The notes beneath the pieces were generated by a model. The model had not been told where the DNA came from and ran no database searches. It saw nothing but the letters and a program-made list of their open reading frames with translations. From positions 416,723-480,722 of the forward strand of contig CBDCFW010000006.1 in NCBI GenBank assembly GCA_965216465.1: 64,000 bases of DNA, in the 5' to 3' direction. Positions 7,824-30,639 of this stretch are shown one piece after another; the stretch's first letter is position 1, and each line of letters opens with the position of its first letter. Source of the stretch: Bacteroidia bacterium. Its GTDB lineage: Bacteria > Bacteroidota > Bacteroidia > NS11-12g > UBA9320. Position numbers and translations under genes: made by a program.

Positions 7824-8876
7824 ATGATTATAGGAATTACGGGAACACTCGCGGCAGGAAAAGGAACAATTGTTGAATATCTTCAAAAGAAAGGATTCAA
7901 ACATTTTTCGGTTAGGGCATATTTGACCAAGAAGGTGAAAGATCAAGGACTGCCTGTAAACCGCGACTCTTTTGTTCAAGTAGCAAATGCCTTACGAGAA
8001 GACAATTCGCCAAGCTTTATTGTAGAAGAATTGTATCGCGAAGCTAAAGAAGCAGGAGGCGATGTGATTATAGAAAGTGTTAGAACAGAGGGTGAAGTTC
8101 AAGCCTTAAAGTCAAAAGGAAATTTCTACCTTTTTGCTATTGATGCCGATGCTGAGATTCGCTATCCAAGAGCGGTTGCTCGAGCTAGCGAAACCGATTC
8201 CGTGAGCTTCGAAACCTTTGTTGCAAATGAAGAACGTGAATGGGCAAATACCGACCCGACCAAGGGTAACTTGAAAAGATGTATTGAACTTTCTGACTAT
8301 AAATTTACCAACAACGGAGAACTAGAAGAGTTGTTTGAACAAATCGACACGGTATTGCAAGACATCAACAACAAGTCTAAAAATGTTACCAAACGCCAAG
8401 ATTATATTTCTTGGGATGAATATTTCATGGGAGTTTCTATTCTCTCGGGAAGAAGAAGCAAGGATCCTTCAACGCAAGTAGGTGCATGCATCATAGACCA
8501 AGATAAAAAGATTATTGCCACCGGCTATAATGGGGCCCCTCGTGGAATTGATGATGAAGATTTCCCTTGGTCTAGGGAAGGAGATTTCTTAGACACGAAG
8601 TACGCCTATGTTTGTCATGCTGAGTTAAACGCAATTTTAAATGCCACCACCCAGAATTTAAAAGGCTGCACCATTTATGTAGCGCTCTTCCCTTGCAATG
8701 AATGTGCAAAATCGATTATTCAATCTGGCATAAAGAAGGTGGTATATTTATCAGATAAGTATATGGATGTCCCTGCATTTATTGCATCCAGAAAAATATT
8801 AGGCATGGCAGATATTGAATTGGTGCAAATGAAGCCATCCATTGCATCATTGAGCTTAGATTTTAGCAAAGTGTGA
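7824..8876 (+). CDS. P-loop nucleotide kinase domain fused to dCMP/cytidine deaminase domain
   Basis: N-terminal Walker A GITGTLAAGKGT. C-terminal zinc deaminase motifs HAELNAI and PCNECAKSI. Confidence 0.7.
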   Translation: MIIGITGTLAAGKGTIVEYLQKKGFKHFSVRAYLTKKVKDQGLPVNRDSFVQVANALREDNSPSFIVEELYREAKEAGGDVIIESVRTEGEVQALKSKGNFYLFAIDADAEIRYPRAVARASETDSVSFETFVANEEREWANTDPTKGNLKRCIELSDYKFTNNGELEELFEQIDTVLQDINNKSKNVTKRQDYISWDEYFMGVSILSGRRSKDPSTQVGACIIDQDKKIIATGYNGAPRGIDDEDFPWSREGDFLDTKYAYVCHAELNAILNATTQNLKGCTIYVALFPCNECAKSIIQSGIKKVVYLSDKYMDVPAFIASRKILGMADIELVQMKPSIASLSLDFSKV

Positions 8877-9733: not shown

Positions 9734-10585
9734 ATGAAGAACTGGCTAATCATATTAATCTTAACCCTATGCATTCATTCAAACGCCACGACCCTCACTC
9801 ATGCCCATTCCCTCCTCCACACCCAAACTCAAACTCAAACTGCCCCATCATTAACCCCATCATTAACCCCATCCTTAACCCCCTGGGATACTGCACTCTA
9901 CATCGATGCTCTTAACGATACCTTTCATATAAAAGTGCATTTGCCGGCAGGTTATGATGCAAGTAAATCGTATCCGTTGCTTTGTTATGTCGATGGAAAT
10001 TTAAATTTGGGTAAAGCAGTAGTTAATCTCTACAAATCAGATGTTAATCGTTCATTTTCAACGACTTGCATCTTGTTAAGCATAGAACATCACGGCAATA
10101 TTCCTGTGCAACGGAGAAGGGATTTTTTATTTGATGGAGCTCCTATTTTCACCGATTTGATGAAGTTGTTGTTTCTTCCTTTAACAAAAGAGAAGTTTAG
10201 CGTTGACGAAAATAATATCTGCTTCTTGGGACATTCATTCGGAGGACTAATCGGCACTTATATGATGCTGAATGACACTTTGTTTAGTCACCATATTTTA
10301 TTGAGTCCTTCATTTTGGGTTAAAGACAAAGCGATATTTCAATATTTAGAAGAATCACCTGTTAGTTCTTACTTTATTTCGTGTGGTGGCATGGAACGCT
10401 TCAACGGAATTCATGACAATGTTCTTGATTTTGTAGAATCTGCTGAGCAGTATCATGGCACGGAAAACATTCAATTAATTGTTTACCCATTCGCAAGACA
10501 TAGCTCTTATCTGGATCGTGGGGTGAGGGATGGGGTCACGTGGTGGTTGGGGAAGGCTGAAAGTAAATCTGACGGAACGCCGTAA
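9734..10585 (+). CDS. putative esterase (enterochelin-esterase-like alpha/beta hydrolase) with TQ/SLTP repeat linker
   Basis: Signal peptide MKNWLIILILTLCIHSNA, a GHSFGG nucleophile elbow, and a low-complexity TQTQTQT-APSLTPSLTPSLTP linker after the signal peptide. Confidence 0.65.
   Translation: MKNWLIILILTLCIHSNATTLTHAHSLLHTQTQTQTAPSLTPSLTPSLTPWDTALYIDALNDTFHIKVHLPAGYDASKSYPLLCYVDGNLNLGKAVVNLYKSDVNRSFSTTCILLSIEHHGNIPVQRRRDFLFDGAPIFTDLMKLLFLPLTKEKFSVDENNICFLGHSFGGLIGTYMMLNDTLFSHHILLSPSFWVKDKAIFQYLEESPVSSYFISCGGMERFNGIHDNVLDFVESAEQYHGTENIQLIVYPFARHSSYLDRGVRDGVTWWLGKAESKSDGTP
9819..9885 (+). repeat. (CAAACT)3 followed by 3 x 12-bp CCATCATTAACC repeats inside esterase gene
   Basis: Direct reading: cacacccaaactcaaactcaaactgccccatcattaaccccatcattaaccccatccttaacccc. 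Confidence 0.85.
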
Positions 10586-10593
10586 GATCCACA

Positions 10594-10680
10594 CTCTAAC
10601 TCAAACTCAAACTCCAACCAAACCTCTAGACTCGCACTCACACTCCAACTCTAACTCACACTGCCATTAACCCCAAAATA
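10594..10680 (+). repeat. degenerate direct copy of the ACTCAAACTC...GCCATTAACCCC repeat downstream of esterase gene
   Basis: ctctaactcaaactcaaactccaacc...actcacactgccattaacccc, direct reading. Confidence 0.8.
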
Positions 10681-11340
10681 CTCCTTATACCATTCCGTTT
10701 CGTGATGGTCAATTTTGGTCTCATCTACTTTGTGATTAACGTCTAGCTTTGCATAAAGAATTTCAAGCGAAGCAAAATCGCGTTGACTGATAACTTGAAT
10801 GTTGTTTCTCAACAATAGAGCGGCACATACACCGACACCTATTTGATAAACCTTGTTCTCTGCAAATCGATTTCCATCGTAGATAACTTGGCTGCCGCAT
10901 GCAGCACTGATATCCATCATCACAGCTAACTCTATGTTCTGATCTTTTGCTATTTCTAACATTTTGTGGGCGGCTGCAATCATACCTTTTGTCCAATCGA
11001 GACCAGATTCTGTTAAAACTTTGGCTTTGCCATCAAGTACATCATCGCCATTTCCACCGTGGATATCACACATTTCTCTTGGGGTACCAAACGAGAATTC
11101 TTCAGGACAAAATCGCGTGACTTTTGCATTGTCGTACTTTAATAACTGCAATGCACTGGGATACCTTCCGTTTGCTGTTCCATCGTAACCACATTCTACT
11201 CCAGCCAAGCATGCACTCATTAAAATGCGAAGTGGATTGTCTGCAGTTGGGCGACGAAGTGATTGTAGTTTTTGACGGTCAGTCATGCTCAAATTAAGGA
11301 ATAAGCATTTTAAGTATTTCTGCAAGCTTTTTGAGGTCAA
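10651..11340 (-). CDS. DUF523-family protein
   Basis: LAGVECGYDGTANG block matches the DUF523/YbbK-like family. Confidence 0.55.
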   Translation of the reverse strand: MTSKSLQKYLKCLFLNLSMTDRQKLQSLRRPTADNPLRILMSACLAGVECGYDGTANGRYPSALQLLKYDNAKVTRFCPEEFSFGTPREMCDIHGGNGDDVLDGKAKVLTESGLDWTKGMIAAAHKMLEIAKDQNIELAVMMDISAACGSQVIYDGNRFAENKVYQIGVGVCAALLLRNNIQVISQRDFASLEILYAKLDVNHKVDETKIDHHETEWYKEYFGVNGSVS

Positions 11341-13235: not shown

Positions 13236-16200
13236 ATGTTCAATTTTCGTTCAGTACTAACCTTACTCTTTCTGACTTCTTGTGCTACTGCATTTTCGCA
13301 ACAAACTATCATCGTTGACCACTTAGGGTCAGGCGATTACACCACAATTCAGGATGCCCTAAATTCAATTAACGGGACCACCATCACCCAAGAAACCCGC
13401 ATCCAAATCAAAGCAGGGACATACGATGAGCACCTGCAAATTGACAGCATTCAAGGTACAAGCTCAATTAACAGAGTAATTCTCGAATCATTTTCTGGCG
13501 ACACCGCTGATGTTTTAATCTTTCACGATTCAGTAGATATTTTTCCTGCCCGATCGAGTGTTGACATCAGAAAAACAAAGCATCTGCTCTTTCAAAACCT
13601 CAGTTTTAGATGTCCAGAAGATGAAGGTTATATCGTTGGTTTAGACGAAGGTGTTGGCGAACTTGAATTTAACGGTTGTCATTTTTTTAAGGGCTCAGGC
13701 ATTGACGACAAACCCGCAATCAGTTTGAACTATAGCTTTAGTGCTTCCGATTACGATTTAGGTAGCTTGTATCTAAGAAACAATCAGTGTACAGATGTTC
13801 GACTGTTTTCGCGCGATATCTCCTTGTTTAATATTGAAACGCTTGAAATAACGAACAATACTATTTCTTACGTCAACTCTACCAGTAATGATGTGCCCAT
13901 ATTGCAAGCCAAAGTGGTTGAAGTTCAAAATAACACGTTCAACAACTCTTCAGTCGGTATCGTTACTGGAGCAGATAAGATCACGATTACCGGCAATTTT
14001 TGTTCTACACGAAGTACAGCCATTTCGATCAATACAAGAACCAAAGGAGATACTTCAGCACTTGTTGCCAATAACATGATTAGTACCAAAAGAACGGTTG
14101 GAGTTCATGTTGCAACTGGAAAAGTTGACGTGCTCAACAACAACATCCATAACTACGATACCATTTCACAATCCATGGCCGTTTATCTCGGTAGTCTTGA
14201 TTCTGTTAGGGTGATAAATAACATTATGAGCAGTTTGGGAACCAAAGCAATTGGCTTCTTTTTATTCGATACGCTAATCCCTTCTAGCTTTTATTGCGAC
14301 TACAACAACTATCATTTCCCAGAAGGTAATTACACCTTGAACAACTTCACATTCCCTGCTACAACAACAAGCTCTATTGCCGAAAATATGAGCAAATACA
14401 ATATTGATTCGAACAGTGTGGCCTTTGACCCGCTCTTCGTCTCCGATTTTGACTTGCACACACGCAATGGAATTCTCAAAGGCAAAGGGATTCATTTACC
14501 CGAAGTACTCTTTGATATAGATGGCGATGCACGTGATCCTGATGAGCCCATAATTGGTGCAGATGTGATAACCGAAAGCGTAGATCTTGTGCCGAGCAGC
14601 TTTAAAAACTTTGTTGGACAATTCTATCCCGGTAAAACCATGGAAATTGAATACGAAGTTTCAAACAGTGGTGGCCTCGACCTTAGTTCTTTAACCTGGT
14701 ACGATGACATTTATTTGAGTTCAGATCAAACTCTAGACGAAGGCGACATCCGACTCGAAACCATTACCAACAACTTTACGGTAGATGCTTCGGACCTCTA
14801 TTCGAGACGTCCCTCTGTATCTATTCCCTATATTGCTGGAGGAACTTATTACTTCATTCTTCAAACCAACTCAACCAAGATTGCATTTGAAGACACCACC
14901 AACAATACGCTAGTTTCTTCAGCTAGAGTTTTGCCTGTGCCCCAATTGCCGAATTTAGAAGTAACAAGTGTTACCGTTCCTCCTTCAATCTTCAGCGGGA
15001 AGCAATTCACCCTCAGCTGGACAGTCGAAAACACAGGAAACGCAAGTACAACAGGCAGCTGGAGTGACTATGTGTATTTCGCTACCAATGAAAATATTCT
15101 CAAACTGAACAATCAAGGCATTAAAGATTCCTTGCTACGCATAAAGGTTTCTGCTCCCACAGGATTGAAAGCAGGCGAATCATACACTTCTTCTACCACG
15201 CTAGGTTTTACCTATCAAATTTTCCGGAAATGTGTACTACCGCGTGCAAACAAATGGCAATCTCAACATATTTGAACAAGACACAACGTTTGTTGACAAT
15301 GGAAAAATAAGTGCAGCACTCAATGTTATTCAATCGCCGCTTCCAGACCTTACAATCACTGGATTGAACATACAGTCTTCTGCCTTTTCTGGAGATACTG
15401 TATTAGCGAATTGGACGGTAAAAAATGTAGGCCAACAAAAGACCTACAGAACAGACCGATTCTATAAACCTACTCCACTGGAAGACAACCCAAGAATGTG
15501 GTACGATCGCTTGATTATTTCGAAGAATCCAGTATTTGATCCGAACGATAAAAACAACATTCAAAAAGCTTTCTATAGCCGTGCCGCTAATGATGAACTC
15601 GATGTTGATTCATCGTATACCGTTAATGCAAAAGTTGCCTTTAGTCGTTGTGAATATGGCAAGTATTATGTTTTTGCCGTAACCAATTACACGGCATCTA
15701 CCTTCGAGCTTCGATACGATAACAACGTGGTATTGATGGATAGCATTGAGCTGATACTTCAGCCCAACCCTGACCTCAAACCAACGTCAATCAGTGTAAC
15801 CAATGAGCCTGCTTCAGGTAAAACCATCGACATCGATTACACCATCGAAAATGACGGTTTTGATGATTGGCGTGGATTCAGTTTTAAGAACAGATTCTAC
15901 ATCCACCCTAACCCAACATTCAATGCTCAAGAAGCTCAATTTTTAGGCAGAACCTATGTTTATGATTCATTGTTGAAAGGCGATGATTTCTCAGAATCGG
16001 TAACCTTTGATGTGCCTTACCGCGTATACGGAGATCAATACGTTACAGTATTTACCGACGAAGATCAAAAGATTTGCGAGGCTCCAAACGACGACAACAA
16101 CATCCTCACTACCAGTTTAGTAGATGTCGAACTTTCGAAACAACCTGATTTGGTTCTGGAGGTAAATGAGATTCCAGACACCTTAATTCCAGGTCAAAAT

Positions 16201-19200
16201 TTACAGCTTATTATCTCTACAAAAAATCAAGGAGAAGAAGCGGCTCGCGAAGGATACTGGTACAACACCGTTCATCTGATTAGCAACATAAATTATGAGC
16301 TAAGAAAGTATAGAATATCGGATGAGTTAGGTGCCGGACTAACACGTAACGACACCTTGAACATTACCATTCCATTAGACCTAAAAGAAGGCTTTTATAT
16401 TGTTCGTCTTACTACGGATTTTACCGACCGAATTTTTGAATTTGGAGGTGAGCAAAACAACATTTTGAGCAGTGATGTGGTTCAAGTGGTGCGTGATGAC
16501 AACCGAGTTCCTGACCTTGATGTTATGAGTTTGAAGGTGCTTGAGACTGATCCTCGAGCCGGCGATGAAGTTTCGTTAGAAGTTAAAATTCTAAACCGTA
16601 GTTTAACTACATCCCAAACAGGCTGGAAAGGAAAAATTGAACTGGAAGATGCCGATGGAAACTTATATGCATTCTTCTACCCAAATCACCTTGGCCGGAT
16701 AGCCAAAGATCAAACGGTGACCGACACCGTTAAAATTAGACTGCCTTTTAGCAAAAGCGGTCAAATCACTTTCCATTATACGACCAACCACGAGAATAAG
16801 CCTATTGAGTATGTGCGAGCGAACAATACTCGGTCGATTACCCGTTCAGTGCTGGCCTATATCCCACCCGACTTAGAGCCTTCGAAGATTACTTCGCAAG
16901 TGTGTTGTAATGTATATTCATTTCAGCATGACACGCTATCAATAGAAGTTGATAATAACGGCCCTGGAGATGTTTTAGGCAGAGGATACTTTGCGAAAGT
17001 GTACTTGTCGGATGATGAAATTCTGGACAAGCACGATTATCATTTAGCCACACATCAACACTTTAGCGGTGTTCGTTCGGGTTCAACCGAAACCTTAGAT
17101 ATTCCTGTTAAATATCCTTACACCCGAGCTGGAACATTGTTTTATATCGTTGAAATAGATACAGACAATGATATTTATGAAGGTGGAAATGAAGACAACA
17201 ACAAGTACACTTCGGGTTATTCGATTAACCTTTCCAATGAGATAACCGACCTCTCATTGGACTCAATTTCAATCACCAATTATACAGGACCCGATGACCG
17301 GTATGTGTTTGTAAATTACACCTTCTCAAAACCAGCAGGCGACTCGATATATCGAAACTGGAACAACTATATCTTGCTCTCCCAAGATAAGCGTTCATTG
17401 CCGCATGCAGTGGGGACGACTCCTCATGAATATACGGCCAATCTACCGGGAAATGTAGACACCTTTATGGAAACCAAATTGGCTACCATGCCTCGAAACT
17501 TACAACCGGGTTACTATTTTATCGGGATGTTGCTAGACCGGAATAATGAGGTGTACGAAACCACGGAAGATAACAATGTACTGTTCTCTTCTGACAGTTT
17601 TTACTTCGATTTTTCGGTTCCATTAGAGTTAGACAGCATAAAAGACACTTTCTGGATAGAAGGCCAGTTTGCGAGCAGTTTGTATTACAATGTTGAACGT
17701 CCACAAGACAAAGGAATGATCGTCAACTTAGATGTTTCTGACAAAAATGCATCTACCGAAATGTATCACCGAGCAGGCTTTATTCCTTCGGCCACGGTAT
17801 ACGACAACAAGTACAACAATCCATTTCTTGCCGATCAAGAAATCTTGGTTCCGGTAACTGATACCGCTGTTAAGGATTACTTGTACGTAGTGCCCAAGTA
17901 TGTACCTCCGGTATATGACATCCACGATCGATTGGATCCCGTTCCCTATTCGATAGTTGCCAACTCTGCAGAATTTAGCATTCATTCCGTAGCACCTAAT
18001 ACAGGAAGCGTTTACGGCAATACTACAGTGCAAGTGAAAGGCTTCGATTTTGACAGCGAGACTAACTTCATATTGTTAAATGCATCGAACGATACCATCA
18101 CCCCATTTGCTGAAAAAATCTTGAATTCAAGTGAGGCGGTACTCACCTTCGACCTCCGAGAAAAAGAGCTAGGTTTCTACGACTTGTTGGCTCTAAAACC
18201 TGCGTCAAAGGCTACGCTAGATCAAGGATTTGAAGTTGACACCTTGGGATTTGAAGACCCATGGGTGAATGTTGATATACCGCACCTACACTTGACCCGC
18301 AAGCCTGCGGTGATGAACATCAATTTTGGAAATCATGCCAACACGAACGGCTACGATTATTGGCTGGTTGTGGCGATTACCAACGCCAAGCAAAATGTAG
18401 ATCACTTAGAAACCAGTTTTGTAGGTTCCTCTGAAGAGGAATTGAATGAATTGTATGATTTTACTGGTAATCCAACAGGAGATTCGACCCATGTTGATAT
18501 TGATGGTATTCGCTACTTTGTGTATTGGATTCCACAGTTATCGGCCAAAGCACAAACTACATTTACGTATACCATAAAGCATTCAGAAGAGGATACAACT
18601 ATGGTATACAGTCTGTTGTTCCGTCAACCGTTGAGTGCATTTTCAATGTCTGGACGATTTGGGGATCTGTGGGAAAGTCAGACTGTGTACGAATGGTATG
18701 AAGCCTATTCAGACAATGTTGGTTTGAAAGAAAAAGCTGGATTTGACTGCAACCGAATCGATATAAAAAATGTACAACAGGAGTTGGCGAACCAAACCAT
18801 AGAGCATGCCAAGAATGTGCATGGTGGTGTAGGAACATTTGGTGCTGCACGAGGCGGACGCGATGTGGCTAAAATTGCCTTTGAAGAATGGAAAAAAGAT
18901 GTGCGAAGCATCGGTGATTCGAAAACGCAGCAAGACATGTTGAAAGACATGGTTTTCAAGAAGAAATCGATTACAGAAACGGCTACAGACTACTTGAAAA
19001 AAATCGACCCTAGAACCAACGCAACCGAGCGATTCTACAAAAAAGATCCTCCTTTTGGCAATTTGGTGAAGGATGTATTTAGCTGTTTGGATAACGATCC
19101 TGAGTTTAAGAAAAACATCAACCGTTGTATCCATGTAAGTTCACACCCGAGGTACGGAAAGACGTATCACAACCTCTGTAAAAAGAAGAAAAAGGATAAC

Positions 19201-20337
19201 GAAGACAACTTCATTACGCGTTGGGTAAATTCAATTGACCCGAATGAGATTGAAGGCCCTCAAGGTGTTACTGATTTGCGTTATGTTGATCAAGGTGAAG
19301 ACATGAATTACATCATCCGATTTGAGAATAAGCCAGAAGCATCTGCTCCAGCGGTAACGGCGTCGATTAACAATCCACTCGATTCTGCGTTCAGATTGCA
19401 GTCTTTTGCATTGAAGGAAATTGGTTTTGGAGACACCGTAATCATTTTGAACGATGAAAATAGCTTGAACCAAGTATATGACTTAGGTCCAAAATACAAT
19501 GATCAGCAGTTGCATGTTGTTGCTGGTTTAGATGTGTTAAACCATCAAGCCGTATGGAGAATGACGACCATCAACCCTGCTACTGGAAATCCGGTGGATG
19601 ACCCATTTGGCGGCTTCTTACCACCAAATGATAGCACAGGAATTGGGGAAGGCTATGTGAAATATGTGATTAAAATGGTTGATGATGTTGAGGTTGGAAA
19701 TGAAGTATTAAATGCTGCAGATATTATCTTCGATCAGAACGAGATCATTCCTACCAATACCTGGTCGAATATAGTAACTGGAAGTGCTCCGAGCAGTCAT
19801 GTTAAAGCCCTACCTAGCAATTCAGCTAAAGAATTTACAGTGAATTGGACAGGTACAGATGGCGAATTGGGACCGGGAATACACTCCTACTCGATTTATG
19901 TATCGAAGGATGACGAAGCCTATTATGAATGGATTGCAAATTCATCGGATACCAGTGCACAATTCATTGGCGAACCGGGAAGTGTTTATCGTTTTTACAG
20001 CATCGTTAATTTAATGAATGGGGCAAGTGAAGGAATTCCGGCCACTTATGATGCAATAACGGAAATAGACCCTGCACGTATTGAACGTATTATTGAAGAA
20101 AACAGGCTGGTGATTTATCCTAATCCAGGAAGTGGAGTGATTAACATCCGTCAAGAGCATGCTAAGCAATTGCACATCACCTTACGCTCGATTCACGGAC
20201 AAGTATTGGGAGAATATGATCTATCAGAATTAGAAAACGAGATTGAAGTTTATCATCTTCCTGCAGGCTTGTACATTATTGAAATGAACCAAGATGGAGT
20301 AAGAAGAAATGTAAGATGGTTGAAAGGGGAGGGTTAA
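13236..20337 (+). CDS. giant secreted cell-surface protein (beta-helix plus CARDB-like repeats) with T9SS type-A C-terminal sorting domain; split by apparent +1 frameshift at ~15205-15275
   Basis: Signal peptide at 13236. The two ORFs (13236-15275 and 15232-20337) overlap by 71 nt in adjacent frames with continuous domain architecture. C-terminus ...VIYPNPGSGVINI...LPAGLYIIEM matches the Por_Secre_tail sorting domain. Confidence 0.6.
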
Positions 20338-24351: not shown

Positions 24352-24399
24352 AAGGCATATGAGAGCAATCTAACAAGTTAGATTGCTCTCATATGCCTT
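24352..24399 (+). terminator. long perfect hairpin (22-bp stem) terminator-like element
   Basis: AAGGCATATGAGAGCAATCTAAC-AAG-GTTAGATTGCTCTCATATGCCTT directly after the 23670-24323 gene. Confidence 0.6.
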
Positions 24400-24643
24400 G
24401 CTATTCCCAGATTATTAGTTCCCTACAAAACCTAATTATAGTGCTAGAAGATATCTTCATCACGAGGTTATTCACTATTTCTAAGTCGGTTTTACTTTTT
24501 GAACCTAAATAGATTCGTAAATAGAAAATATGACCTTAGTAGTTGAGCGATTTTTGATTCGAAACCATCAATATCTTCACAAACCTATTTTTACTATCAC
24601 CCCCCCTTGCAATTCCACCCCACCACCCCTACCTTAGACCCAC

Positions 24644-25492
24644 ATGAAACTCCTCCTCCGCTTTCTAAAAATATTAGCTCTTCTATATATCCTCATTTGT
24701 ACCCTGCTCTACTTCTTCCAAGAAAAGCTGATTTTCTTTCCGCAGAAACTTGAACAAGACTACCAGTTTAGTTTTGAGCAAGAGCGAGAATTTGAGGAAC
24801 TGTTTTTTGAAGCAGAAGATGGAACTAAACTGCACGGCATATTCTTTAAGGGGGTTAATGCGGTTAATGGGGTTAATGGGGTTAATGGGGTTAATGGGAA
24901 AGATAGCTCCAAAGGACTTATCTTCTACCTCCACGGTAACGGAAGCTCACTCAGCTCGTGGGGAAACGTAGCTAACACCTACACCAAACTCAATTACGAT
25001 GTCTTCATCCTCGACTATCGAGGCTACGGAAAAAGTGGTGGAAGCATAACCAGTCAAGAACAACTGTATGCCGATAACCAGTTGATATACAACGACTTTA
25101 ATAAAAGATACGACGAAAACAAGATTACCCTTCTCGGCTATTCTATCGGATCTGGAATGGCAGCTCATCTTGCATCCACCAACACTCCAAAACAACTTAT
25201 CCTTCAAGCTCCGTATTATAGCTTAACAGACCTCATGAAGAAGAAGTATGCCATCATCCCTCCCTTCATTCTGAGGTATAAATTCGAAACCAATGAATAC
25301 CTCAAAGACTGCAACATGCCCATCACCGTTTTTCACGGCACCAACGATAAAGTGATATACTACAGCTCATCCATCAAACTCAAAAAGGACTTTAATCAAA
25401 TCAAACTCTTCCCGCTTGAGGGTCGAGGACACAACGGCATGACAGACAATCCTATCTACCAACAAGAAATTGAACAAATCTTAATGGAGTAA
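24644..25492 (+). CDS. alpha/beta hydrolase with in-frame (GVN)5 repeat
   Basis: GYSIGSG nucleophile elbow and a HGTND...GHN catalytic-triad context. Contains a VNAVNGVNGVNGVNG repeat. Confidence 0.65.
   Translation: MKLLLRFLKILALLYILICTLLYFFQEKLIFFPQKLEQDYQFSFEQEREFEELFFEAEDGTKLHGIFFKGVNAVNGVNGVNGVNGKDSSKGLIFYLHGNGSSLSSWGNVANTYTKLNYDVFILDYRGYGKSGGSITSQEQLYADNQLIYNDFNKRYDENKITLLGYSIGSGMAAHLASTNTPKQLILQAPYYSLTDLMKKKYAIIPPFILRYKFETNEYLKDCNMPITVFHGTNDKVIYYSSSIKLKKDFNQIKLFPLEGRGHNGMTDNPIYQQEIEQILME
24851..24898 (+). repeat. 5 x 9-bp tandem repeat GGGGTTAAT (in-frame, inside hydrolase gene)
   Basis: Direct reading: ggggttaatgcggttaatggggttaatggggttaatggggttaatggg. Confidence 0.9.
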
Positions 25493-27146: not shown

Positions 27147-28877
27147 TTATCCAAGCTCAATTCCCTCCGACCATTCCAATCCACTCGCAAGTTTTGCAGA
27201 AGAAAACTCCAAATGAAGCACCCTCCTTTTTTTGGGGTTGCTAGACTTCGAACTTTTGTGAAGCAATAAAGGCTTCATGAGCATGATCCCTCCGGCTTCT
27301 ATTTCTATCGGGATAGGATCAGTATTCTCGGTGATAAGCTTCCGTTCTGCATCACTGTGTATCTTTTTGTGTGAACCAGGAATTACCTGCAAGCCGCCAC
27401 CATTCTTTGGACTAACATCATCCAAATAAATACGCAAGGTGAATGTATTTTGATTAATCTCAATCGGTGGATTCACACTTACGATTCCTTCCTTGCTTGT
27501 CCAACCGGTGTATCCCTTCACCAACTTCTTCTTCACGACATTTATAGCTCGATCTTGATGCCAGGTAACATACCAATTAGCCTTTTCGGTCTTGTTAAAA
27601 AAAATTGATTTACACAGCTGAGCATCCTTATCGATTGATTTAATAACCTTAAGAACTCCTTTGGTAATCACCAGATCCAGTAAGTTCGGATGTTTATTCA
27701 ATAAAGCCCTTTCAGAAAATTTATCAGGATTCGCTTGAAGTTGTAAGGCTTTATCCAGAGCCCTGCTTAACCTTTTTATTTCACGCAAGCTGAGAACATG
27801 GTTTAGGATGGCATATCCCTTATGTTCTAACTGTTTGCCTGCTGCCTTAATATTCTTATCGGTTAACTCGGTAGTATAGTTGCTTACACTTTGTTTTAGT
27901 CTATCCTCAATTCTTCGTTGCAAATCAGCAGGTTGCAAAACCTTCACCGATTCACCATACGAAAGAATCTCTTTCTCCAGCTCAAAATTGTGCTGCACCT
28001 TCAGTGCTATAACTACACCAAAATTATCTCTTTTGATTACGGTTTGCGAATGGTGCAGCGGCTTGGTAATAATGTAAGGTGCATGAGCATGATCAATAAA
28101 TATTTCTACATCCATAAGTGGAGCATTGGGAGAAACCGATACCCCAATCGCATTTCTAAAATAGGCTGCAGTATCAAAACTGTCATCCATTCTATAAGCA
28201 GATTTTCCAGCAGAAAGATTAACGATACGATCCAAGGCCAGGTTCAATATCCCTTCGGCCTTATGCTTACAACCAATCACAAACCATCTATTTCTAAACT
28301 CTTTGAGTAAGTACGGATGAAAATCAAATGAATTGGCCTTTCGAGCCTTAAATGATTTATAAGTGAGGTTGATTGTTCGTTTCTTGATAATGGCATTGTA
28401 GATCGTGTCGAGGTATTCCAATCCCTTTAAGTTCTCATTCTTCTCGAAATCAATCACCGGTTTAGTAGCTGTTTTCTGCGAATAAATGTGATCTTCCAAC
28501 TTCTGAACCATGCCATCCAATTCTCTAAAGTGAGAGAATCCCTGAAACTGCTTCATAAACTCAACTGCTTCGGTGAGCTTCCCTAAATCTTGTTCAGTAA
28601 GTGGAATATTGGTAATCGAATAATCTGCATCTTCATAGGTGTAGTACTTCTTATCCAATACAATTATCGGAGCAAAGTAACCCAGCTTATCGCTTCGCAT
28701 AATTTGGATATCGGCTTGTACCGTCCGTTTACTTACCCCTTTGTCGATCCCCTCGTATTCATATAGTGCATCTGAGCATGCTTCAATCAAGTCTTCCAAC
28801 GTCCATTTTCTGTATCTGTTCTGCAGACATTGATCAATGGTTTTGTAGCGTATGAGTGCATTCTTATTTACCGACAT
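27147..28877 (-). CDS. wHTH-WYL domain regulator fused to PhyH/EctD-like Fe(II)/2-oxoglutarate dioxygenase domain
   Basis: N-terminus NALIRYKTIDQCLQNRYRKWTLEDL (wHTH) and a WYL-like block FHPYLLKEFRNRWFVIG. C-terminus has WHQD...PGSHK...R, which is the PhyH-type HxD...H...R iron/2OG triad. Confidence 0.65.
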   Translation of the reverse strand: MSVNKNALIRYKTIDQCLQNRYRKWTLEDLIEACSDALYEYEGIDKGVSKRTVQADIQIMRSDKLGYFAPIIVLDKKYYTYEDADYSITNIPLTEQDLGKLTEAVEFMKQFQGFSHFRELDGMVQKLEDHIYSQKTATKPVIDFEKNENLKGLEYLDTIYNAIIKKRTINLTYKSFKARKANSFDFHPYLLKEFRNRWFVIGCKHKAEGILNLALDRIVNLSAGKSAYRMDDSFDTAAYFRNAIGVSVSPNAPLMDVEIFIDHAHAPYIITKPLHHSQTVIKRDNFGVVIALKVQHNFELEKEILSYGESVKVLQPADLQRRIEDRLKQSVSNYTTELTDKNIKAAGKQLEHKGYAILNHVLSLREIKRLSRALDKALQLQANPDKFSERALLNKHPNLLDLVITKGVLKVIKSIDKDAQLCKSIFFNKTEKANWYVTWHQDRAINVVKKKLVKGYTGWTSKEGIVSVNPPIEINQNTFTLRIYLDDVSPKNGGGLQVIPGSHKKIHSDAERKLITENTDPIPIEIEAGGIMLMKPLLLHKSSKSSNPKKRRVLHLEFSSAKLASGLEWSEGIELG

Positions 28878-29061: not shown

Positions 29062-29142
29062 GCCCTTATGGCGGAATGGCATACGCAGCAGTCTTAGAAA
29101 CTGTGGCCGCAAGGCATGTAGGTTCAACTCCTACTAGGGGCA
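29062..29142 (+). tRNA. tRNA-Leu (anticodon TAG), class II
   Basis: Hand-folded cloverleaf: acceptor GCCCTTA/TAGGGGC, anticodon loop CTTAGAA, long variable arm, T-loop GGTTCAACTCC. Confidence 0.75.
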
Positions 29143-29143
29143 C

Positions 29144-29217
29144 TTTGGGATGGTCTAACGGAAGGACGGGTGGTTTTGAGCCACTAAGTGGAGGTTCGAC
29201 CCCTTCTCCCAAAACCA
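29144..29217 (+). tRNA. tRNA-Gln (TTG), U1:A72, encoded CCA
   Basis: Acceptor TTTGGGA/TCCCAAA, loop TTTTGAG, T-arm GGAGGTTCGACCCCTTC, 3' ACCA. Confidence 0.7.
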
Positions 29218-29226
29218 AGTATATAT

Positions 29227-29302
29227 CTAGATGTAGGGGAGTCAGGCTTTTCCCGCTCGCTTTGGACGCGAGAGCACGTTGGTTCGAATCCAGCCATCTA
29301 GA
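29227..29302 (+). tRNA. tRNA-Pro (TGG), enlarged D-loop
   Basis: Acceptor CTAGATG/CATCTAG, anticodon stem CTCGC/GCGAG, loop TTTGGAC, T-arm GTTGGTTCGAATCCAGC. Confidence 0.65.
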
Positions 29303-29304
29303 CT

Positions 29305-29376
29305 GTGACTGTAGTATAACGGCAAATACACCAGGTTGTGACCTTGGTTATGAGAGTTCGATTCTCTCCAGTCACC
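29305..29376 (+). tRNA. tRNA-His (GTG)
   Basis: Acceptor GTGACTG/CAGTCAC with C discriminator, loop TTGTGAC, T-arm GAGAGTTCGATTCTCTC. Confidence 0.7.
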
Positions 29377-29381
29377 AAAAT

Positions 29382-29453
29382 GCTCCTATAGCATAATGGT
29401 TAGTGCAGCAGGTTTTCAACCTGAAGATTAGGGTTCAATTCCCTGTAGGAGTA
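29382..29453 (+). tRNA. tRNA-Glu (TTC)
   Basis: Acceptor GCTCCTA/TAGGAGT, loop TTTTCAA, T-arm TAGGGTTCAATTCCCTG. Confidence 0.7.
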
Positions 29454-29458
29454 CAAAT

Positions 29459-29530
29459 ACAGATGTGGCCGAACGGATAGGCACTCCGCTTCTAACGGAG
29501 CACATAAGGGTTCGAATCCTTTCATCTGTA
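29459..29530 (+). tRNA. tRNA-Arg (TCT)
   Basis: Acceptor ACAGATG/CATCTGT, anticodon stem CTCCG/CGGAG, loop CTTCTAA. Confidence 0.7.
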
Positions 29531-29533
29531 CAT

Positions 29534-29601
29534 GGGCAAGCAAGCAGGATAGAATGAGTCTTCGAAACTCTAGTCGGTAGGTTCGAATCCTACCTTGCTC
29601 A
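29534..29601 (+). tRNA. short (68-nt) atypical tRNA, anticodon loop CTTCGAA (TCG, Arg-like), reduced D-arm
   Basis: Acceptor GGGCAAG/CTTGCTC, T-arm GTAGGTTCGAATCCTAC. Only a 4-bp anticodon stem, and a ~12-nt D region. Confidence 0.45.
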
Positions 29602-29606
29602 CAAAT

Positions 29607-29680
29607 GGGGTAGATACACAAGTGGCTCGCACCTTGCACTTGCAATGCGAGGGTTGTCGGTTCAAGACCGACCTACTCCA
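29607..29680 (+). tRNA. tRNA-Ala (TGC) with G3:U70 identity pair
   Basis: Acceptor GGGGTAG/CTACTCC (G3:T70), loop CTTGCAA, T-arm GTCGGTTCAAGACCGAC. Confidence 0.75.
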
Positions 29681-29686
29681 CAAAAT

Positions 29687-29758
29687 TGAGATGTAGCTCA
29701 GAGGCAGAGCAGTCGGCTGTTAACCGTCAGGACGAGATTTCGAAACTCTCCATCTCAG
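29687..29758 (+). tRNA. tRNA-Asn (GTT), U1:A72
   Basis: Acceptor TGAGATG/CATCTCA, D-arm TAGCTCAGAGGCAGAGC, loop CTGTTAA. Mismatches in the anticodon stem and T-stem. Confidence 0.6.
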
Positions 29759-29764
29759 CAAATC

Positions 29765-29841
29765 GGTTTAGTGTGCTCTACTGGTGTAGGGATTTAGCTT
29801 GTCACGCTTCAAAAACGAGGGTTCGAAACCCTCCTAGACCG
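29765..29841 (+). tRNA. aberrant tRNA-like gene, anticodon loop TTGTCAC (GTC, Asp-like), poor anticodon stem
   Basis: Acceptor GGTTTAG/CTAGACC and T-arm GAGGGTTCGAAACCCTC are clean. The D region contains an extra hairpin CTCTAC-TGGT-GTAGGG, and the anticodon stem has only 3 bp. Confidence 0.4.
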
Positions 29842-29848
29842 CAAATAT

Positions 29849-29922
29849 TCCTCTATAGCTCAGATGGTGGTAGCACTCGGCTTTTAACCGAGGGGTCCTA
29901 GGTTCAAGTCCTAGTGGGGGAA
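29849..29922 (+). tRNA. tRNA-Lys (TTT), U1:A72
   Basis: Acceptor TCCTCTA/TGGGGGA, anticodon stem CTCGG/CCGAG, loop CTTTTAA, T-arm CTAGGTTCAAGTCCTAG. Confidence 0.7.
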
Positions 29923-29930
29923 CATTTTAT

Positions 29931-30007
29931 TGAGTAGTAACCGCCCAGTCTGATATGCTGGAGTTAGGTAATGGTTGTAAATGTTGGTTCGAATCCGACC
30001 TACTCAA
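29931..30007 (+). tRNA. aberrant tRNA-like gene (perfect acceptor and T-arm, no canonical D/anticodon arms); isotype undetermined
   Basis: Acceptor TGAGTAG/CTACTCA, T-arm GTTGGTTCGAATCCGAC. The interior holds a CCAG-N9-CTGG hairpin and no 5-bp/7-nt anticodon arm. Confidence 0.35.
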
Positions 30008-30016
30008 CTTAAATAT

Positions 30017-30093
30017 TGTGGAGTGATTACGATTGGTAAGTAGGCGGTCTCATAAGCCGAGGTATGTGGATTCGATTTCCACCTCCGCAACCA
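30017..30093 (+). tRNA. tRNA-Met (CAT), encoded CCA
   Basis: Acceptor TGTGGAG/CTCCGCA, loop CTCATAA, T-arm GTGGATTCGATTTCCAC, 3' ACCA. Confidence 0.6.
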
Positions 30094-30094
30094 T

Positions 30095-30165
30095 GCGAGT
30101 GAAGCATTTCGGTAATGCACCTGCCTTCCAAGTAGGAGAGCTAGGTTCGACTCCTAGTACTCGCA
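30095..30165 (+). tRNA. tRNA-Gly (TCC)
   Basis: Acceptor GCGAGTG/TACTCGC, anticodon stem CCTGC/GTAGG, loop CTTCCAA, T-arm CTAGGTTCGACTCCTAG. Confidence 0.7.
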
Positions 30166-30170
30166 CTTAT

Positions 30171-30244
30171 TGGCCTTTAGCTTATGCGGTAGAAGCCCCT
30201 CACTCATAATGAGGAGATAGATGGTTCGAATCCATCAAGGCCAA
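30171..30244 (+). tRNA. tRNA with CAT anticodon (Met or Ile2/lysidine), U1:A72
   Basis: Acceptor TGGCCTT/AAGGCCA, D-arm GCTT...AAGC, anticodon stem CCTCA/TGAGG, loop CTCATAA. Confidence 0.7.
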
Positions 30245-30249
30245 CATTT

Positions 30250-30324
30250 AGTTCACTAGCCCAAATGGAAGAGGCAACGGGTTTAAGCCCCGTACAGGTC
30301 TGAGTTCGAATCTCAGGTGAACTA
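30250..30324 (+). tRNA. class-I-shaped tRNA with anticodon TAA (reads UUA, Leu) - atypical short variable arm
   Basis: Acceptor AGTTCAC/GTGAACT, anticodon stem ACGGG/CCCGT, loop TTTAAGC, a 5-6 nt variable region, T-arm CTGAGTTCGAATCTCAG. Confidence 0.55.
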
Positions 30325-30329
30325 CAAAC

Positions 30330-30399
30330 ATACTTCTGGCGATGGCAGCCGTTTGGTCTCCAAAACCAAAAGAACAAGGTTCGATTCCTTGGGAGTATG
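30330..30399 (+). tRNA. tRNA-Trp (CCA), short D-arm
   Basis: Acceptor ATACTTC/GGAGTAT, anticodon stem TTGGT/ACCAA, loop CTCCAAA, T-arm CAAGGTTCGATTCCTTG. Confidence 0.65.
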
Positions 30400-30404
30400 C
30401 ATAA

Positions 30405-30478
30405 GATAGGATGGCTGAGTGGTTTAAAGCGGCAGACTGCAAATCTGTTATTCAGGAGTTCGAATCTCCTTCCTATCT
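30405..30478 (+). tRNA. tRNA-Cys (GCA) with U73 discriminator
   Basis: Acceptor GATAGGA/TCCTATC plus T, anticodon stem GCAGA/TCTGT, loop CTGCAAA, T-arm AGGAGTTCGAATCTCCT. Confidence 0.7.
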
Positions 30479-30483
30479 CACTT

Positions 30484-30556
30484 GCGACTTAAGCTAACCT
30501 GGTGGAAGCATTGGTCTGAAAAACCAAAGGGCGAGGATCGTAACCTCGAAGTCGCA
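30484..30556 (+). tRNA. tRNA-Phe (GAA), unusual T-loop ATCGTAA
   Basis: Acceptor GCGACTT/AAGTCGC, anticodon stem TTGGT/ACCAA, loop CTGAAAA, T-arm CGAGGATCGTAACCTCG. Confidence 0.65.
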
Positions 30557-30562
30557 CAATAT

Positions 30563-30634
30563 GGGTTATGGTAGTGGCATCCAGCCGAGACTGTAAATCT
30601 CTAGCCTTGTAGGGTTCGAATCCCTGCTAACCCA
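30563..30634 (+). tRNA. tRNA with GTA anticodon (Tyr) but short variable arm and irregular D-arm - atypical for bacteria
   Basis: Acceptor GGGTTAT/CTAACCC (one mismatch), anticodon stem GAGA/TCTC, loop CTGTAAA, a 7-nt variable region, T-arm TAGGGTTCGAATCCCTG. Confidence 0.5.
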
Positions 30635-30639
30635 CACAA

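What the first reader, a model, noticed from the sequence alone, without database searches (positions are those of the whole stretch)
9819..10680. Esterase gene bracketed by direct ACTCAAACTC...ATTAACCCC micro-repeats that also occur inverted in a second hydrolase gene
The same 9-12-bp unit (CATTAACCCC, reverse complement GGGGTTAATG) forms tandem arrays at 9845-9880 (3 x 12 bp, coding SLTP) and 24851-24898 (5 x 9 bp, opposite orientation, coding GVN). A single copy with the ACTCAAACTC leader recurs at 10594-10680, overlapping the 3' end of the DUF523 gene. Two different hydrolases thus carry in-frame, length-variable linkers built from one dispersed repeat family. This may be a contingency or VNTR locus, or the footprint of a small repeat element.
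Basis: seen in the sequence. Interest (0 to 1): 0.5.

Follow-up and report, generated by a model that had tools for sequence, protein, structure and literature searches.

The report
Dispersed 9-bp repeat inside three genes
One short DNA repeat (GGGGTTAAT) has expanded in frame inside two hydrolase genes and at the end of a third gene of a Bacteroidota bacterium; it belongs to an already described kind of scattered bacterial micro-repeat, so it is ordinary rather than a new switch or mobile element.

Summary
The esterase gene carries a 12-bp x3.3 array (9843-9882, PSLT). A second alpha/beta hydrolase carries the reverse-complement 9-bp x5.9 array (24846-24898, GVN). A single unit (10666-10674) supplies the last codons of the DUF523 gene. 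A CA-rich hexamer tract joined to the unit by ACTGCC occurs twice, directly repeated 772 bp apart, bracketing the mature esterase domain.

The same DNA is read as PSLT on one strand and GVN on the other, so the shared identity lies in the DNA, not the protein. All units are multiples of 3 and sit at tolerant places: a linker after a likely signal peptide, a disordered surface loop absent from 120 homologues, and a C-terminal tail.

Most lie between co-directional genes, just 5' of start codons, with the C-rich strand as sense. This matches the positional bias published for G-quadruplex-type heptamer repeats and TAACTGA repeats.

Best reading: local members of a slippage-prone dispersed repeat family, tolerated in coding DNA. 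Frameshift phase variation is excluded. No mobile-element features were found. Length variation among strains could not be tested. Interest is modest: a new member of a known kind.

The parts
9734..10585 (+). Secreted serine esterase ORF (283 aa), PF00756/IroE-like, with GHSFG nucleophile motif. It has an N-terminal hydrophobic segment that looks like a signal peptide (judged by eye, no prediction tool), then a repeat-encoded linker.
   Evidence: ORF list. Pfam Esterase E=1.2e-5, domain from residue 59. Weak PDB matches to BES/IroE/Fes esterases. Only one remote homologue in 5.8 billion proteins.
9816..9841 (+). Copy A of the 26-nt CA-rich hexamer tract (TCCACACCCAAACTCAAACTCAAACT). It encodes ...HTQTQTQT.
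   Evidence: the repeat finder family D1, 24 of 26 identical to 10588-10613. TRF (CAAACT)3.
9843..9882 (+). 12-bp array CCCCATCATTAA x3.3, which is ATTAACCCC plus 3 nt. It encodes (PSLT)3P. It carries four C-tracts, giving a relaxed G4 motif on the minus strand.
   Evidence: TRF score 73. Translation. G4 motif scan with 1-12 nt loops, 9843-9883 minus strand.
10588..10662 (+). Copy B: a degenerate hexamer array (ACTCNA x11.5). It fills the whole spacer between the convergent esterase and DUF523 genes and contains the DUF523 stop codon (10651-10653).
   Evidence: TRF, the repeat finder D1, sequence. No terminator-like hairpin in this spacer.
10660..10674 (+). Junction ACTGCC plus a single ATTAACCCC unit. 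On the minus strand this reads GGG GTT AAT GGC AGT = G V N G S, the start of the GVNGSVS tail of DUF523 (Val-Ser and the stop follow at 10651-10659).
   Evidence: Sequence, motif search, the repeat finder D2.
10651..11286 (-). DUF523 / 2-thiouracil desulfurase family ORF (211 aa). Its conserved ...WY..YFG end is extended by VNGSVS*, read from the repeat.
   Evidence: Pfam PF04463 E=1e-26. Exact protein present in the public collection. Homologues stop 0-3 residues after YFG.
24644..25492 (+). Alpha/beta hydrolase ORF (282 aa) of a large, conserved Bacteroidota family whose members are about 266 aa.
   Evidence: Pfam Hydrolase_4/Abhydrolase_1. More than 4000 homologues, best 63% identity by BLASTP; 62-67% in the MAFFT alignment A1.
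24846..24898 (+). 9-bp array GGGGTTAAT x5.9. The GVNAVNGVNGVNGVNG segment (codons 70-85) lies in a 16-column insert between strands beta2 and beta3. It holds the only canonical G4 motif in the 64-kb window (24869-24898).
   Evidence: TRF score 92. Insert absent from all 120 best homologues. AlphaFold pLDDT below 50 for residues 76-86 while the fold scores 85 overall. G4 motif scan.
24600..24641 (+). C-rich, G-poor leader that ends 2 nt before the hydrolase-2 start codon. It may be a degenerate relative of the repeat. Its link to the repeat family is an inference.
   Evidence: Sequence. Relaxed G4 motif on the minus strand. Predicted pairing with the G-rich array is no better than in shuffles, z=-0.1.
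10520..10536 (+). G-rich segment GGGGTGAGGGATGGGGT inside the esterase 3' end, 88% complementary to the 12-mer unit. It may be a degenerate inverted copy or a chance match.
   Evidence: the repeat finder inverted pairs I2/I3. My rough estimate is about 0.2 such pairs by chance in this region.

Best explanation
These are three local instances of one short-tandem-repeat family that exists at the DNA level: the nonamer GGGGTTAAT/ATTAACCCC (with a 12-bp variant) plus a companion CA-rich hexamer, ACTCAA.

The family belongs to the class of G-tract micro-repeats that occur scattered through some bacterial genomes, mostly in short spacers next to start and stop codons.

In this Bacteroidota genome, copies have expanded (inferred: by replication slippage or local duplication) inside or against coding sequence. 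They persist because every unit is a multiple of three, four of the six reading frames through the unit are open, and each copy sits where extra residues are harmless:
1. After a likely signal peptide of a secreted esterase. Here it acts as a Thr/Gln/Pro/Ser-rich tether, TQTQTQT-A-(PSLT)3-P.
2. In a surface beta-hairpin loop of an alpha/beta hydrolase, as a disordered 16-residue GVN insert.
3. At the extreme C-terminus of a DUF523 protein, giving six extra residues and a new stop.

Shown: the anatomy, the reading frames, the lineage-specific insertion, the disordered loop, the C-terminal extension, and the distribution and positional bias of the 9-mer elsewhere.

Inferred: the slippage origin, neutrality or tolerance, and that the esterase linker and the tract 3' of the esterase descend from one composite sequence.
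For: - The same unit is translated as PSLT on one strand (esterase) and as GVN on the other (hydrolase 2, DUF523). Selection on the protein therefore cannot explain the identity.
- The hexamer tract, the ACTGCC junction and the unit recur together 772 bp apart.
- Hydrolase-2 insert: none of the 120 best homologues has it. In 101 of them the segment between the two flanking motifs is 9 residues, against 25 here. AlphaFold gives pLDDT below 50 for residues 76-86 and places the insert between strands E62-68 and E92-96.
- DUF523 homologues end at YFG plus 0-3 residues; this protein adds VNGSVS.
- The esterase Pfam domain starts at residue 59, just after the array, which ends at residue 50.
- A 19-nt double unit is expected about 4 times by chance in the 596-Gb genome collection.
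- Among those 86 arrays, 36 have a credible start codon within -12 to +60 nt on the C-rich strand, 22 of them within -6 to +8 nt. About 9 are credible on the G-rich strand (my count after setting aside in-array ATG artefacts among the 19 the script listed). The binomial p is 7e-5. In addition, 37 abut the end of an upstream co-directional ORF.
- The same positional bias is published for GGGNATC G4 heptamers in Xanthomonas and Nostoc (PMC4692102). TAACTGA heptamers, which also occur in Bacteroidetes, show the same preference for sites just upstream of start codons, and their coding copies sit at protein ends (PMC4679880).
- The only canonical G4 motif in the window is the hydrolase-2 array.
Against: - Only 64 kb of the source genome could be read, so 'dispersed in this genome' rests on three sites.
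- 42 kb from a related metagenome-assembled genome (JGI sample 3300050572; one gene product 77% identical, another in the same 90%-identity cluster) contains no copy.
- All three window copies touch coding sequence: two lie wholly inside ORFs and the third overlaps the DUF523 stop. In other genomes about three quarters of arrays are non-coding or at gene ends.
- The hexamer component and the ACTGCC junction were found in none of the 120 other loci searched, so the composite may be a purely local duplication.
- No length polymorphism, slippage or G4 formation was observed directly.
Confidence: 0.62

Rival explanations
1. Selected VNTR or contingency locus. Copy-number changes in the arrays tune or switch the two hydrolases, for example through tether length or loop length, as an adaptive hypermutable system.
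For: Perfect or near-perfect tandem units (96% and 93% matches) suggest recent expansion. The esterase appears to be secreted (judged by eye from its N-terminus), and simple repeats near N-termini are a known feature of variable genes (Lin & Kussell, cited in PMC4692102).
Against: Units of 6, 9 and 12 bp keep the frame, so no on/off frameshift switching is possible. Copy numbers are low (3-6). None lies between promoter hexamers. Rehm et al. found repeats of this class not associated with surface or adaptation genes (PMC4692102). No alleles could be found to show variation.
Confidence: 0.12
2. Footprint or boundary of a mobile cassette. The esterase domain was inserted, or can be deleted, by recombination between the two composite direct repeats, or the repeats are remnants of a MITE-like element.
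For: A 24-of-26-nt direct repeat plus a shared ACTGCC-ATTAACCCC junction bracket exactly the mature esterase domain. The esterase is a near-orphan. MacGregor noted intergenic heptamer arrays at sites of gene rearrangement (PMC4679880). A minisatellite-bearing MITE exists in Porphyromonas gingivalis (PMC4596501).
Against: No terminal inverted repeats: the best pair is 17 nt at 88%, about chance level. The nearest transposase is 30 kb away. No other copy of the composite occurs in the window or in the 120 other loci searched. The repeat is itself a simple-sequence tract, not a target-site duplication of fixed length. Region 9734-10585 shows no clear compositional break (coarse).
Confidence: 0.1
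3. Functional nucleic-acid element. The arrays act as G-quadruplexes, or as C-rich unstructured leaders, that regulate transcription or translation. The coding copies would be regulatory (an RNA G4 in the hydrolase-2 mRNA, a template-strand G4 in the esterase gene).
For: The hydrolase-2 array is the only canonical G4 motif in 64 kb, and all three relaxed motifs lie in or next to the same two genes. With G4 energies the fold improves from -15.8 to -22.7 kcal/mol for the hydrolase-2 mRNA segment, and from -13.9 to -28.6 for the strand complementary to the esterase array (RNA parameters). In other genomes the arrays sit right at start codons with a strong strand bias. The modal number of consecutive G-tracts is 4-5, as for the G4 heptamers (PMC4692102).
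Against: Many units in related arrays lack G-tracts (GTGATCAAT, GTGGTCAAT). The two coding arrays in the window have opposite strand orientation relative to their genes. Pairing of the leader with the array is no more stable than in shuffles. There are no experimental data.
Confidence: 0.12
4. Independent low-complexity linkers that resemble each other by chance or by convergent selection on the protein.
For: Pro/Thr/Ser/Gln-rich tethers are common in secreted enzymes (general knowledge).
Against: The peptides differ (PSLT versus GVN) while the DNA is identical in reverse complement. By my estimate, two arrays sharing one 9-mer by chance has odds of about 1e-4. Shuffles never reach the observed motif counts.
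Confidence: 0.03

Closest known systems
G-quadruplex-forming heptamer repeats GGGNATC / GGGGA(C/T)T of Xanthomonas and Nostoc (Rehm et al. 2015, PMC4692102), which I take to correspond to the cyanobacterial STRR heptamers (own knowledge; the paper does not use that term)
   Same: Short G-tract units in tandem, scattered through the genome in both orientations. They are commonest between co-directional genes, within about 50 bp upstream of an ORF with the G-rich strand antisense, or overlapping stop codons. About four G-tracts are preferred. They are not linked to transposable elements or to surface genes. The Bacteroidota 9-mer arrays show the same bias.
   Different: The unit here is 9 bp (or 12), not 7, with a different sequence and a different phylum. 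Because 9 is a multiple of 3, these arrays can sit in frame inside genes, which heptamers cannot do at arbitrary copy number. In the window all three copies touch coding sequence, two of them wholly inside ORFs. G4 formation was not measured here.
TAACTGA heptamer direct repeats of Beggiatoaceae, Cyanobacteria and five Bacteroidetes (MacGregor 2015, PMC4679880)
   Same: Arrays lie a few nucleotides upstream of start codons, inside operons, and often supply or overlap the stop codon of the upstream gene. Coding copies are confined to the very beginning or end of proteins, outside recognised domains. The distribution across phyla is patchy and no transfer mechanism is known.
   Different: The unit sequence and length differ. 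TAACTGA has stops in all forward frames, whereas GGGGTTAAT is open in 4 of 6 frames. No candidate binding protein was examined here.
Coding VNTRs / minisatellites used for MLVA typing, and SSR contingency loci of Haemophilus and Neisseria
   Same: Near-perfect tandem units inside ORFs that are expected to change copy number by slipped-strand mispairing.
   Different: Contingency loci rely on units that shift the frame or alter promoter spacing; these do not. Variation among strains, the defining property of a VNTR, could not be examined.
Pro/Thr-rich interdomain linkers of secreted hydrolases
   Same: The esterase segment TQTQTQTAPSLTPSLTPSLTP lies between a likely signal peptide and the catalytic domain, like a flexible tether.
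   Different: Here the tether is built from a DNA repeat that also occurs, reverse-complemented, in unrelated contexts. Its origin is therefore at the DNA level rather than from selection for a linker peptide.

Membership tests
Dispersed G-tract short tandem repeats (GGGNATC type / STRR-like) | Tandem arrays of a 6-9 nt unit that contains a G-tract of at least 3 | tested here: met
   GGGGTTAAT x5.9 at 24846-24898 and its 12-bp variant x3.3 at 9843-9882.
Dispersed G-tract short tandem repeats (GGGNATC type / STRR-like) | At least four consecutive G-tracts with short loops (sequence able to form a G4) | tested here: met
   Canonical motif at 24869-24898(+). The esterase array meets it only with 8-nt loops. 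The single unit at 10666-10674 does not. Actual folding was not measured.
Dispersed G-tract short tandem repeats (GGGNATC type / STRR-like) | Many copies spread over the same genome, in both orientations | tested here: inconclusive
   Three sites in both orientations in 64 kb, enriched over shuffles. The rest of the source genome could not be retrieved. No copy in 42 kb of a related genome.
Dispersed G-tract short tandem repeats (GGGNATC type / STRR-like) | Over-represented in non-coding spacers next to start/stop codons, with the G-rich strand antisense upstream of ORFs | tested here: inconclusive
   Met for the same 9-mer in other genomes: 36 credible starts on the C-rich strand against about 9 on the G-rich strand, and 65 of 86 arrays not internal to long ORFs. 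In the window only the copy at 10588-10674 is of this kind; the other two are internal to ORFs.
SSR contingency (phase-variation) locus | Repeat unit not a multiple of 3 inside an ORF, or a repeat that sets promoter -35/-10 spacing | tested here: not met
   Units are 6, 9 and 12 bp and all in frame. No promoter-like hexamers flank the arrays.
SSR contingency (phase-variation) locus | Copy number differs within populations or between strains and switches expression | not testable with these tools
   No second strain, reads or alleles are available. The metagenome scan for alleles gave only two chance matches.
VNTR (coding minisatellite) | Tandem repeat whose copy number varies among strains | not testable with these tools
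   Tandem structure shown; variation could not be examined.
MITE / small mobile element footprint | Terminal inverted repeats and a fixed-length target-site duplication | tested here: not met
   No terminal inverted repeats around 9816-10674; the best inverted pair is 17 nt at 88%. The 26-nt direct repeat is itself simple sequence.
MITE / small mobile element footprint | Multiple full-length copies, or a cognate transposase | tested here: not met
   The composite (hexamers + ACTGCC + unit) occurs only twice in the window and in none of the 120 other loci searched. The nearest rve transposase is at 40351-41325.
Collagen-like Gly-X-Y repeat | Long uninterrupted Gly-X-Y run recognised by the Collagen model, able to form a triple helix | tested here: not met
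   Only 5 triplets, one of them with Ala in the Gly position (GVN AVN GVN GVN GVN). No Pfam Collagen hit. Predicted as a disordered loop.

The most novel reading that the evidence does not exclude
(GGGGTTAAT)n and its degenerate relatives (constant ATGGG plus 4 variable nt) may form a Bacteroidota-wide class of operon-internal spacer arrays. They would be placed with the C-rich, G-free strand as mRNA directly against start codons and would act in Shine-Dalgarno-independent translation initiation or coupling, or act as template-strand G-quadruplexes. Because the unit is 9 bp, these arrays could repeatedly be captured into proteins as linkers, loops and tails. Under this reading the esterase would be a gene whose former leader array was fused in frame to a signal-peptide exon, and the two flanking arrays could mediate deletion of the domain.
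Probability: 0.15. Interest if true: 0.6.

Novelty: new member of a known kind. Interest (0 to 1): 0.3.

Why it matters
For this locus the result is mainly a clean-up. The repeats are real, but they are not a phase-variation switch and not a mobile-element scar.

Two points have some wider value.

First, this is a clear case where one DNA micro-repeat is read in two frames or strands. It yields a tether, a surface loop and a C-terminal tail in three unrelated proteins. That illustrates how repeats whose unit is a multiple of three can seed new low-complexity protein segments.

Second, the same nonamer forms arrays just 5' of start codons, with a strong strand bias, in many rumen Bacteroidales and Saprospiraceae genomes. 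This extends to Bacteroidota, and to a 9-bp unit, a pattern described so far for heptamers in Xanthomonas, cyanobacteria and Beggiatoaceae, whose function is still unknown.

Tried and rejected
- Retrieving the source genome or strain variants failed. Exact look-ups of both hydrolases found nothing. The 100%-identical AlaDH record (P0122, on a 1.3-Mb NCBI/ENA contig) has no gene-position entry.
- A relative from JGI sample 3300050572 was fetched (L119, L120). It is not syntenic at the esterase locus and has no motif copies.
- The metagenome scan for hydrolase-2 alleles with 3-6 units gave two unrelated chance matches.
- A phage origin is not supported: no megablast match of window 1-25000 to 50,697 phage records.
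- A literal-sequence literature search for GGGGTTAAT returned only primers and the like. Searches for 'nonanucleotide' and '9-bp' returned nothing relevant.
- Rfam found only tRNAs in the window.
- A terminator role for the hexamer spacer is rejected: there is no hairpin and the plus strand is almost G-free and unstructured (-0.5 kcal/mol).
- Long-range pairing between the C-rich leader and the G-rich array appears in the MFE and centroid structures, but z = -0.1 against shuffles, so it is not evidence.
- The collagen-like reading of GVN is rejected.
- The hexamer/ACTGCC composite was searched for in all 120 loci held at that point and was absent.
Full report
**1.

Reading the sequence and Tandem Repeats Finder give the following features:
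- (CAAACT)3 at 9824-9841.
- CCCCATCATTAA x3.3 at 9843-9882 (96% matches).
- A degenerate ACTCNA hexamer array x11.5 at 10593-10662.
- GGGGTTAAT x5.9 at 24846-24898 (93% matches, one GCGGTTAAT variant).
- A single ATTAACCCC at 10666-10674.

The repeat finder shows a 26-nt direct repeat, TCCACAC(C/T)C(A/T)AACTCAAACTCAAACT, at 9816-9841 and 10588-10613 (24 of 26 identical). In both places the hexamer tract is joined to the unit through the same ACTGCC junction (9839-9844 and 10660-10665). The two copies are therefore one composite sequence present twice, 772 bp apart.

The motifs exceed every dinucleotide shuffle:
- GGGGTTAATG with up to 1 mismatch: 12 matches against 3.0 expected.
- TTAACCCC: 9 against 1.6.
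- The hexamer leader: 16 against 4.0.

**2. The genes.**

The window comes from a Bacteroidota chromosome. Evidence: a PorP/SprF gene and a CHU_C type IX secretion domain, and about 38% G+C.

ORF 9734-10585(+) is a 283-aa serine esterase.
- It matches Pfam PF00756 from residue 59, has a GHSFG motif, and has weak PDB matches to IroE/BES/Fes esterases.
- Its N-terminus, MKNWLIILILTLCIHSNA, looks like a signal peptide. I judged this by eye; no signal-peptide tool was available.
- Residues 30-50, TQTQTQT-A-PSLT-PSLT-PSLT-P, are encoded entirely by the hexamer tract and the 12-mer array.
- No in-frame Met follows the array until about residue 150, so the array is truly coding.

ORF 24644-25492(+) is an alpha/beta hydrolase of a very large family: more than 4000 homologues, the best 63% identical, almost all 262-273 aa long.

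ORF 10651-11286(-) is a DUF523/2-thiouracil-desulfurase family protein (Pfam E=1e-26). This exact 211-aa product is in the public protein collection.

**3. What each repeat copy does to its gene.**

Hydrolase 2:
- The array encodes GVNAVNGVNGVNGVNG (residues 70-85), a 16-column insert in the alignment between ...LHGIFFK and the conserved strand GLIFYLHGN.
- None of 13 aligned homologues has the insert.
- In 101 of the 120 best hits the segment between the two flanking motifs is 9 residues, against 25 here. Three more hits matched the pattern too early in the sequence, and the other 16 of these homologues did not fit the search pattern but are only 265-266 aa long, so they cannot carry the insert.
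- AlphaFold on this alignment gives a confident fold (mean pLDDT 85, pTM 0.86). The insert lies between strands E62-68 and E92-96 and has pLDDT below 50 for residues 76-86. It is a disordered surface loop.

DUF523:
- Members of this subfamily share a C-terminal ...DHHE..WY..YFG motif and stop 0-3 residues later. One aligned homologue (P0249) instead has a 10-residue tail.
- The window protein reads YFG-VNGSVS*. The extra codons and the stop come from GGGGTTAAT-GGCAGT-GTGAGT-TAG, which is the repeat read on the minus strand.
- The 65 nt between the two convergent stop codons consist entirely of the hexamer tract. The spacer has no terminator-like hairpin, and its plus strand is almost G-free and unstructured.

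**4. The shared identity is in the DNA, not the protein.**

The same unit is read as (P)SLT on one strand and as GVN on the other. Convergent selection for a peptide cannot explain this.

All units (6, 9 and 12 bp) are multiples of three. GGGGTTAAT is open in four of its six frames. Copies can therefore persist in frame wherever extra residues are tolerated.

All three sites fit that description: after a likely signal peptide, in a hairpin loop, and at a C-terminus. MacGregor noted the same for the coding copies of TAACTGA repeats, which sit at the very start or end of proteins and outside recognised domains (PMC4679880).

**5. The same nonamer elsewhere.**

I scanned one genome per prokaryotic species for two adjacent units. 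A 19-nt pattern is expected only about 4 times by chance in that collection (my estimate).

Of the 86 period-9 arrays found, 75 are in class Bacteroidia. These are mostly rumen Prevotellaceae and other Bacteroidales, plus several Saprospiraceae MAGs, and Rudanella and Parapedobacter. A 12-bp variant, GGGGTTAATGGT, recurs on at least 8 contigs of one Ignavibacteria MAG.

The flanking units are degenerate, with a constant ATGGG plus four variable bases (GGGTTTGAT, GGGCTTTAT, GTGATCAAT and so on).

Position and strand:
- 36 arrays have an ATG that opens an ORF of at least 80 aa within -12 to +60 nt downstream on the C-rich strand. In 22 of them it lies within -6 to +8 nt. Their N-termini are credible (MKK... 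signal peptides, a LolD-type MISIQGIKKSFGNLE, a LytTR regulator MIRCLLVDDEP).
- The script listed 19 such starts on the G-rich strand. After setting aside ATGs that lie inside the array itself, I count about 9 as credible.
- The binomial p for 36 of 45 is 7e-5.
- 37 arrays also abut the end of an upstream co-directional ORF.

Examples read base by base:
- A LytS-type kinase stop (the TAA of the first unit), then the array, then the ATG of the response regulator (L103).
- nqrE, array, nqrF (L082).
- An aminopeptidase, array, a glycyl-radical enzyme (L030).

At most 21 of the 86 arrays (24%) lie inside long open frames, with no strand preference. The number of consecutive G-tracts peaks at 4-5.

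The unit also occurs on 13 viral contigs, four or five of which show extended arrays of related units.

**6. Comparison with what is known.**

This is the behaviour described for GGGNATC / GGGGA(C/T)T heptamer repeats in Xanthomonas and Nostoc. Those repeats are scattered and over-represented between aligned ORFs. They lie within 50 bp upstream of an ORF with the G-rich strand antisense, or at or over stop codons. Four units are preferred, they form G4s in vitro, and they are not tied to surface genes or mobile elements (PMC4692102).

It also matches TAACTGA heptamers, which sit a few nucleotides upstream of start codons in Beggiatoaceae, cyanobacteria and five Bacteroidetes. No spreading mechanism is known for them (PMC4679880).

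I found no description of the nonamer itself. I therefore file the window's repeats as a new member of this known kind. The difference is that the 9-bp unit allows in-frame residence in genes.

In line with the G4 theme, the hydrolase-2 array is the only canonical G4 motif in the 64 kb. The three further relaxed motifs all lie in or next to the same two genes: 9843-9883(-), 9792-9824(-), and the leader at 24600-24641(-). This is suggestive but unproven. Many related units lack G-tracts, and the two coding arrays have opposite orientation relative to their genes.

**7.

- Contingency locus: a frameshift switch is impossible with these unit sizes, and none lies in a promoter spacer.
- VNTR: structurally plausible, but variation could not be examined.
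- Mobile-element footprint: no terminal inverted repeats, no nearby transposase, and no further copies of the composite.

The bracketing of the esterase domain is real. One reading consistent with the family's usual position is that both tracts began as ordinary spacer arrays, one 5' of the esterase and one at the DUF523 stop. The upstream array would later have become fused in frame to a signal-peptide-encoding start. This is inference only. The two 24-of-26-nt repeats could also mediate deletion of the domain; that was not tested.

**8. Limits.**

- Only the window of the source genome could be read. Its proteins are in the public collection: 14 of 18 other window proteins tested are exact members, on a 1.3-Mb NCBI/ENA contig. 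No DNA record could be fetched.
- The two repeat-bearing hydrolases are absent from that collection, even as close homologues. I cannot explain this and do not read it as polymorphism.
- A related metagenome-assembled genome (one gene product 77% identical, another in the same 90%-identity cluster) is not syntenic at this locus and has no copies in 42 kb.
- The allele scan of metagenomes returned only chance matches.

**Verdict.**

The best explanation, at confidence about 0.6, is in-frame, tolerated expansions of a dispersed G-tract nonamer repeat family. Interest is modest (0.3): a new member of a known kind.

Noticed in passing
window 29062-30712 (+), with neighbours 27147-28877 and 31446-34657: An array of 17 tRNA genes with 17 different anticodons packed into 1.65 kb. 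It is flanked by a WYL/WCX-PhyH regulator and followed by Band-7, RtcB and RlaP RNA-repair genes. This looks like a tRNA gene array linked to an RNA-repair module.
   Followed up: partly
window about 36000-64000: G+C drops to 0.32-0.37. The genes look like a mobile or defence island: PIN_8, zeta-toxin-like, an rve-family IS transposase (40351-41325), AAA_21/AbiEii-like ATPase, RNase H-like, DUF3871, AAA_24 and a type I restriction HsdR (61663-63912). Two very large ORFs (15232-20337 and 51584-56848) were not examined.
   Followed up: partly
window 9734-10585: The esterase is a near-orphan. It has one hit (24% identity, E=7e-5) among 5.8 billion clustered proteins, and only weak similarity to IroE/BES/Fes siderophore esterases.
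   Followed up: partly
window 9734-10585 and 24644-25492: Both repeat-bearing hydrolases are missing from the public protein collection, even as close homologues. By contrast, 14 of 18 other proteins of the window are exact members from one 1.3-Mb NCBI/ENA contig. The cause is unknown; a filter in the collection is possible.
   Followed up: partly
window 24600-24641 and 24352-24399: A C-rich, G-poor tract (CACCCCCCCTTGCAATTCCACCCCACCACCCCTACCTTAGACCC) ends 2 nt before the hydrolase-2 start codon. A perfect 23-nt inverted repeat (hairpin) follows the upstream gene. The leader is predicted to pair with the G-rich array, but no better than in shuffles.
   Followed up: partly
window 10520-10536: GGGGTGAGGGATGGGGT inside the esterase 3' end is 88% complementary to the 12-mer unit at 9866-9882. 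It may be a decayed inverted copy or a chance match.
   Followed up: no
loci L001-L118 (for example L001, L014, L029, L023, L062, L113): The genome loci that carry the 9-mer are extremely rich in other short tandem repeats (periods 7, 9, 11, 12, 14): 461 arrays in 820 kb. Arrays of different units often adjoin each other, and one 332-nt array shows higher-order structure.
   Followed up: partly
L082, L103, L009, L116, L076: Arrays lie inside operons: nqrE-array-nqrF, and after LytS-type kinase genes in two unrelated genomes. A ProA homologue (L116) carries an internal PST-rich insert. In L076 two opposed arrays form a hairpin.
   Followed up: no
window 7824-8876: A dCMP deaminase fused to an N-terminal AAA_18 kinase-like domain. 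A JGI metagenome protein falls in the same 90%-identity cluster, but its gene neighbourhood is different.
   Followed up: no
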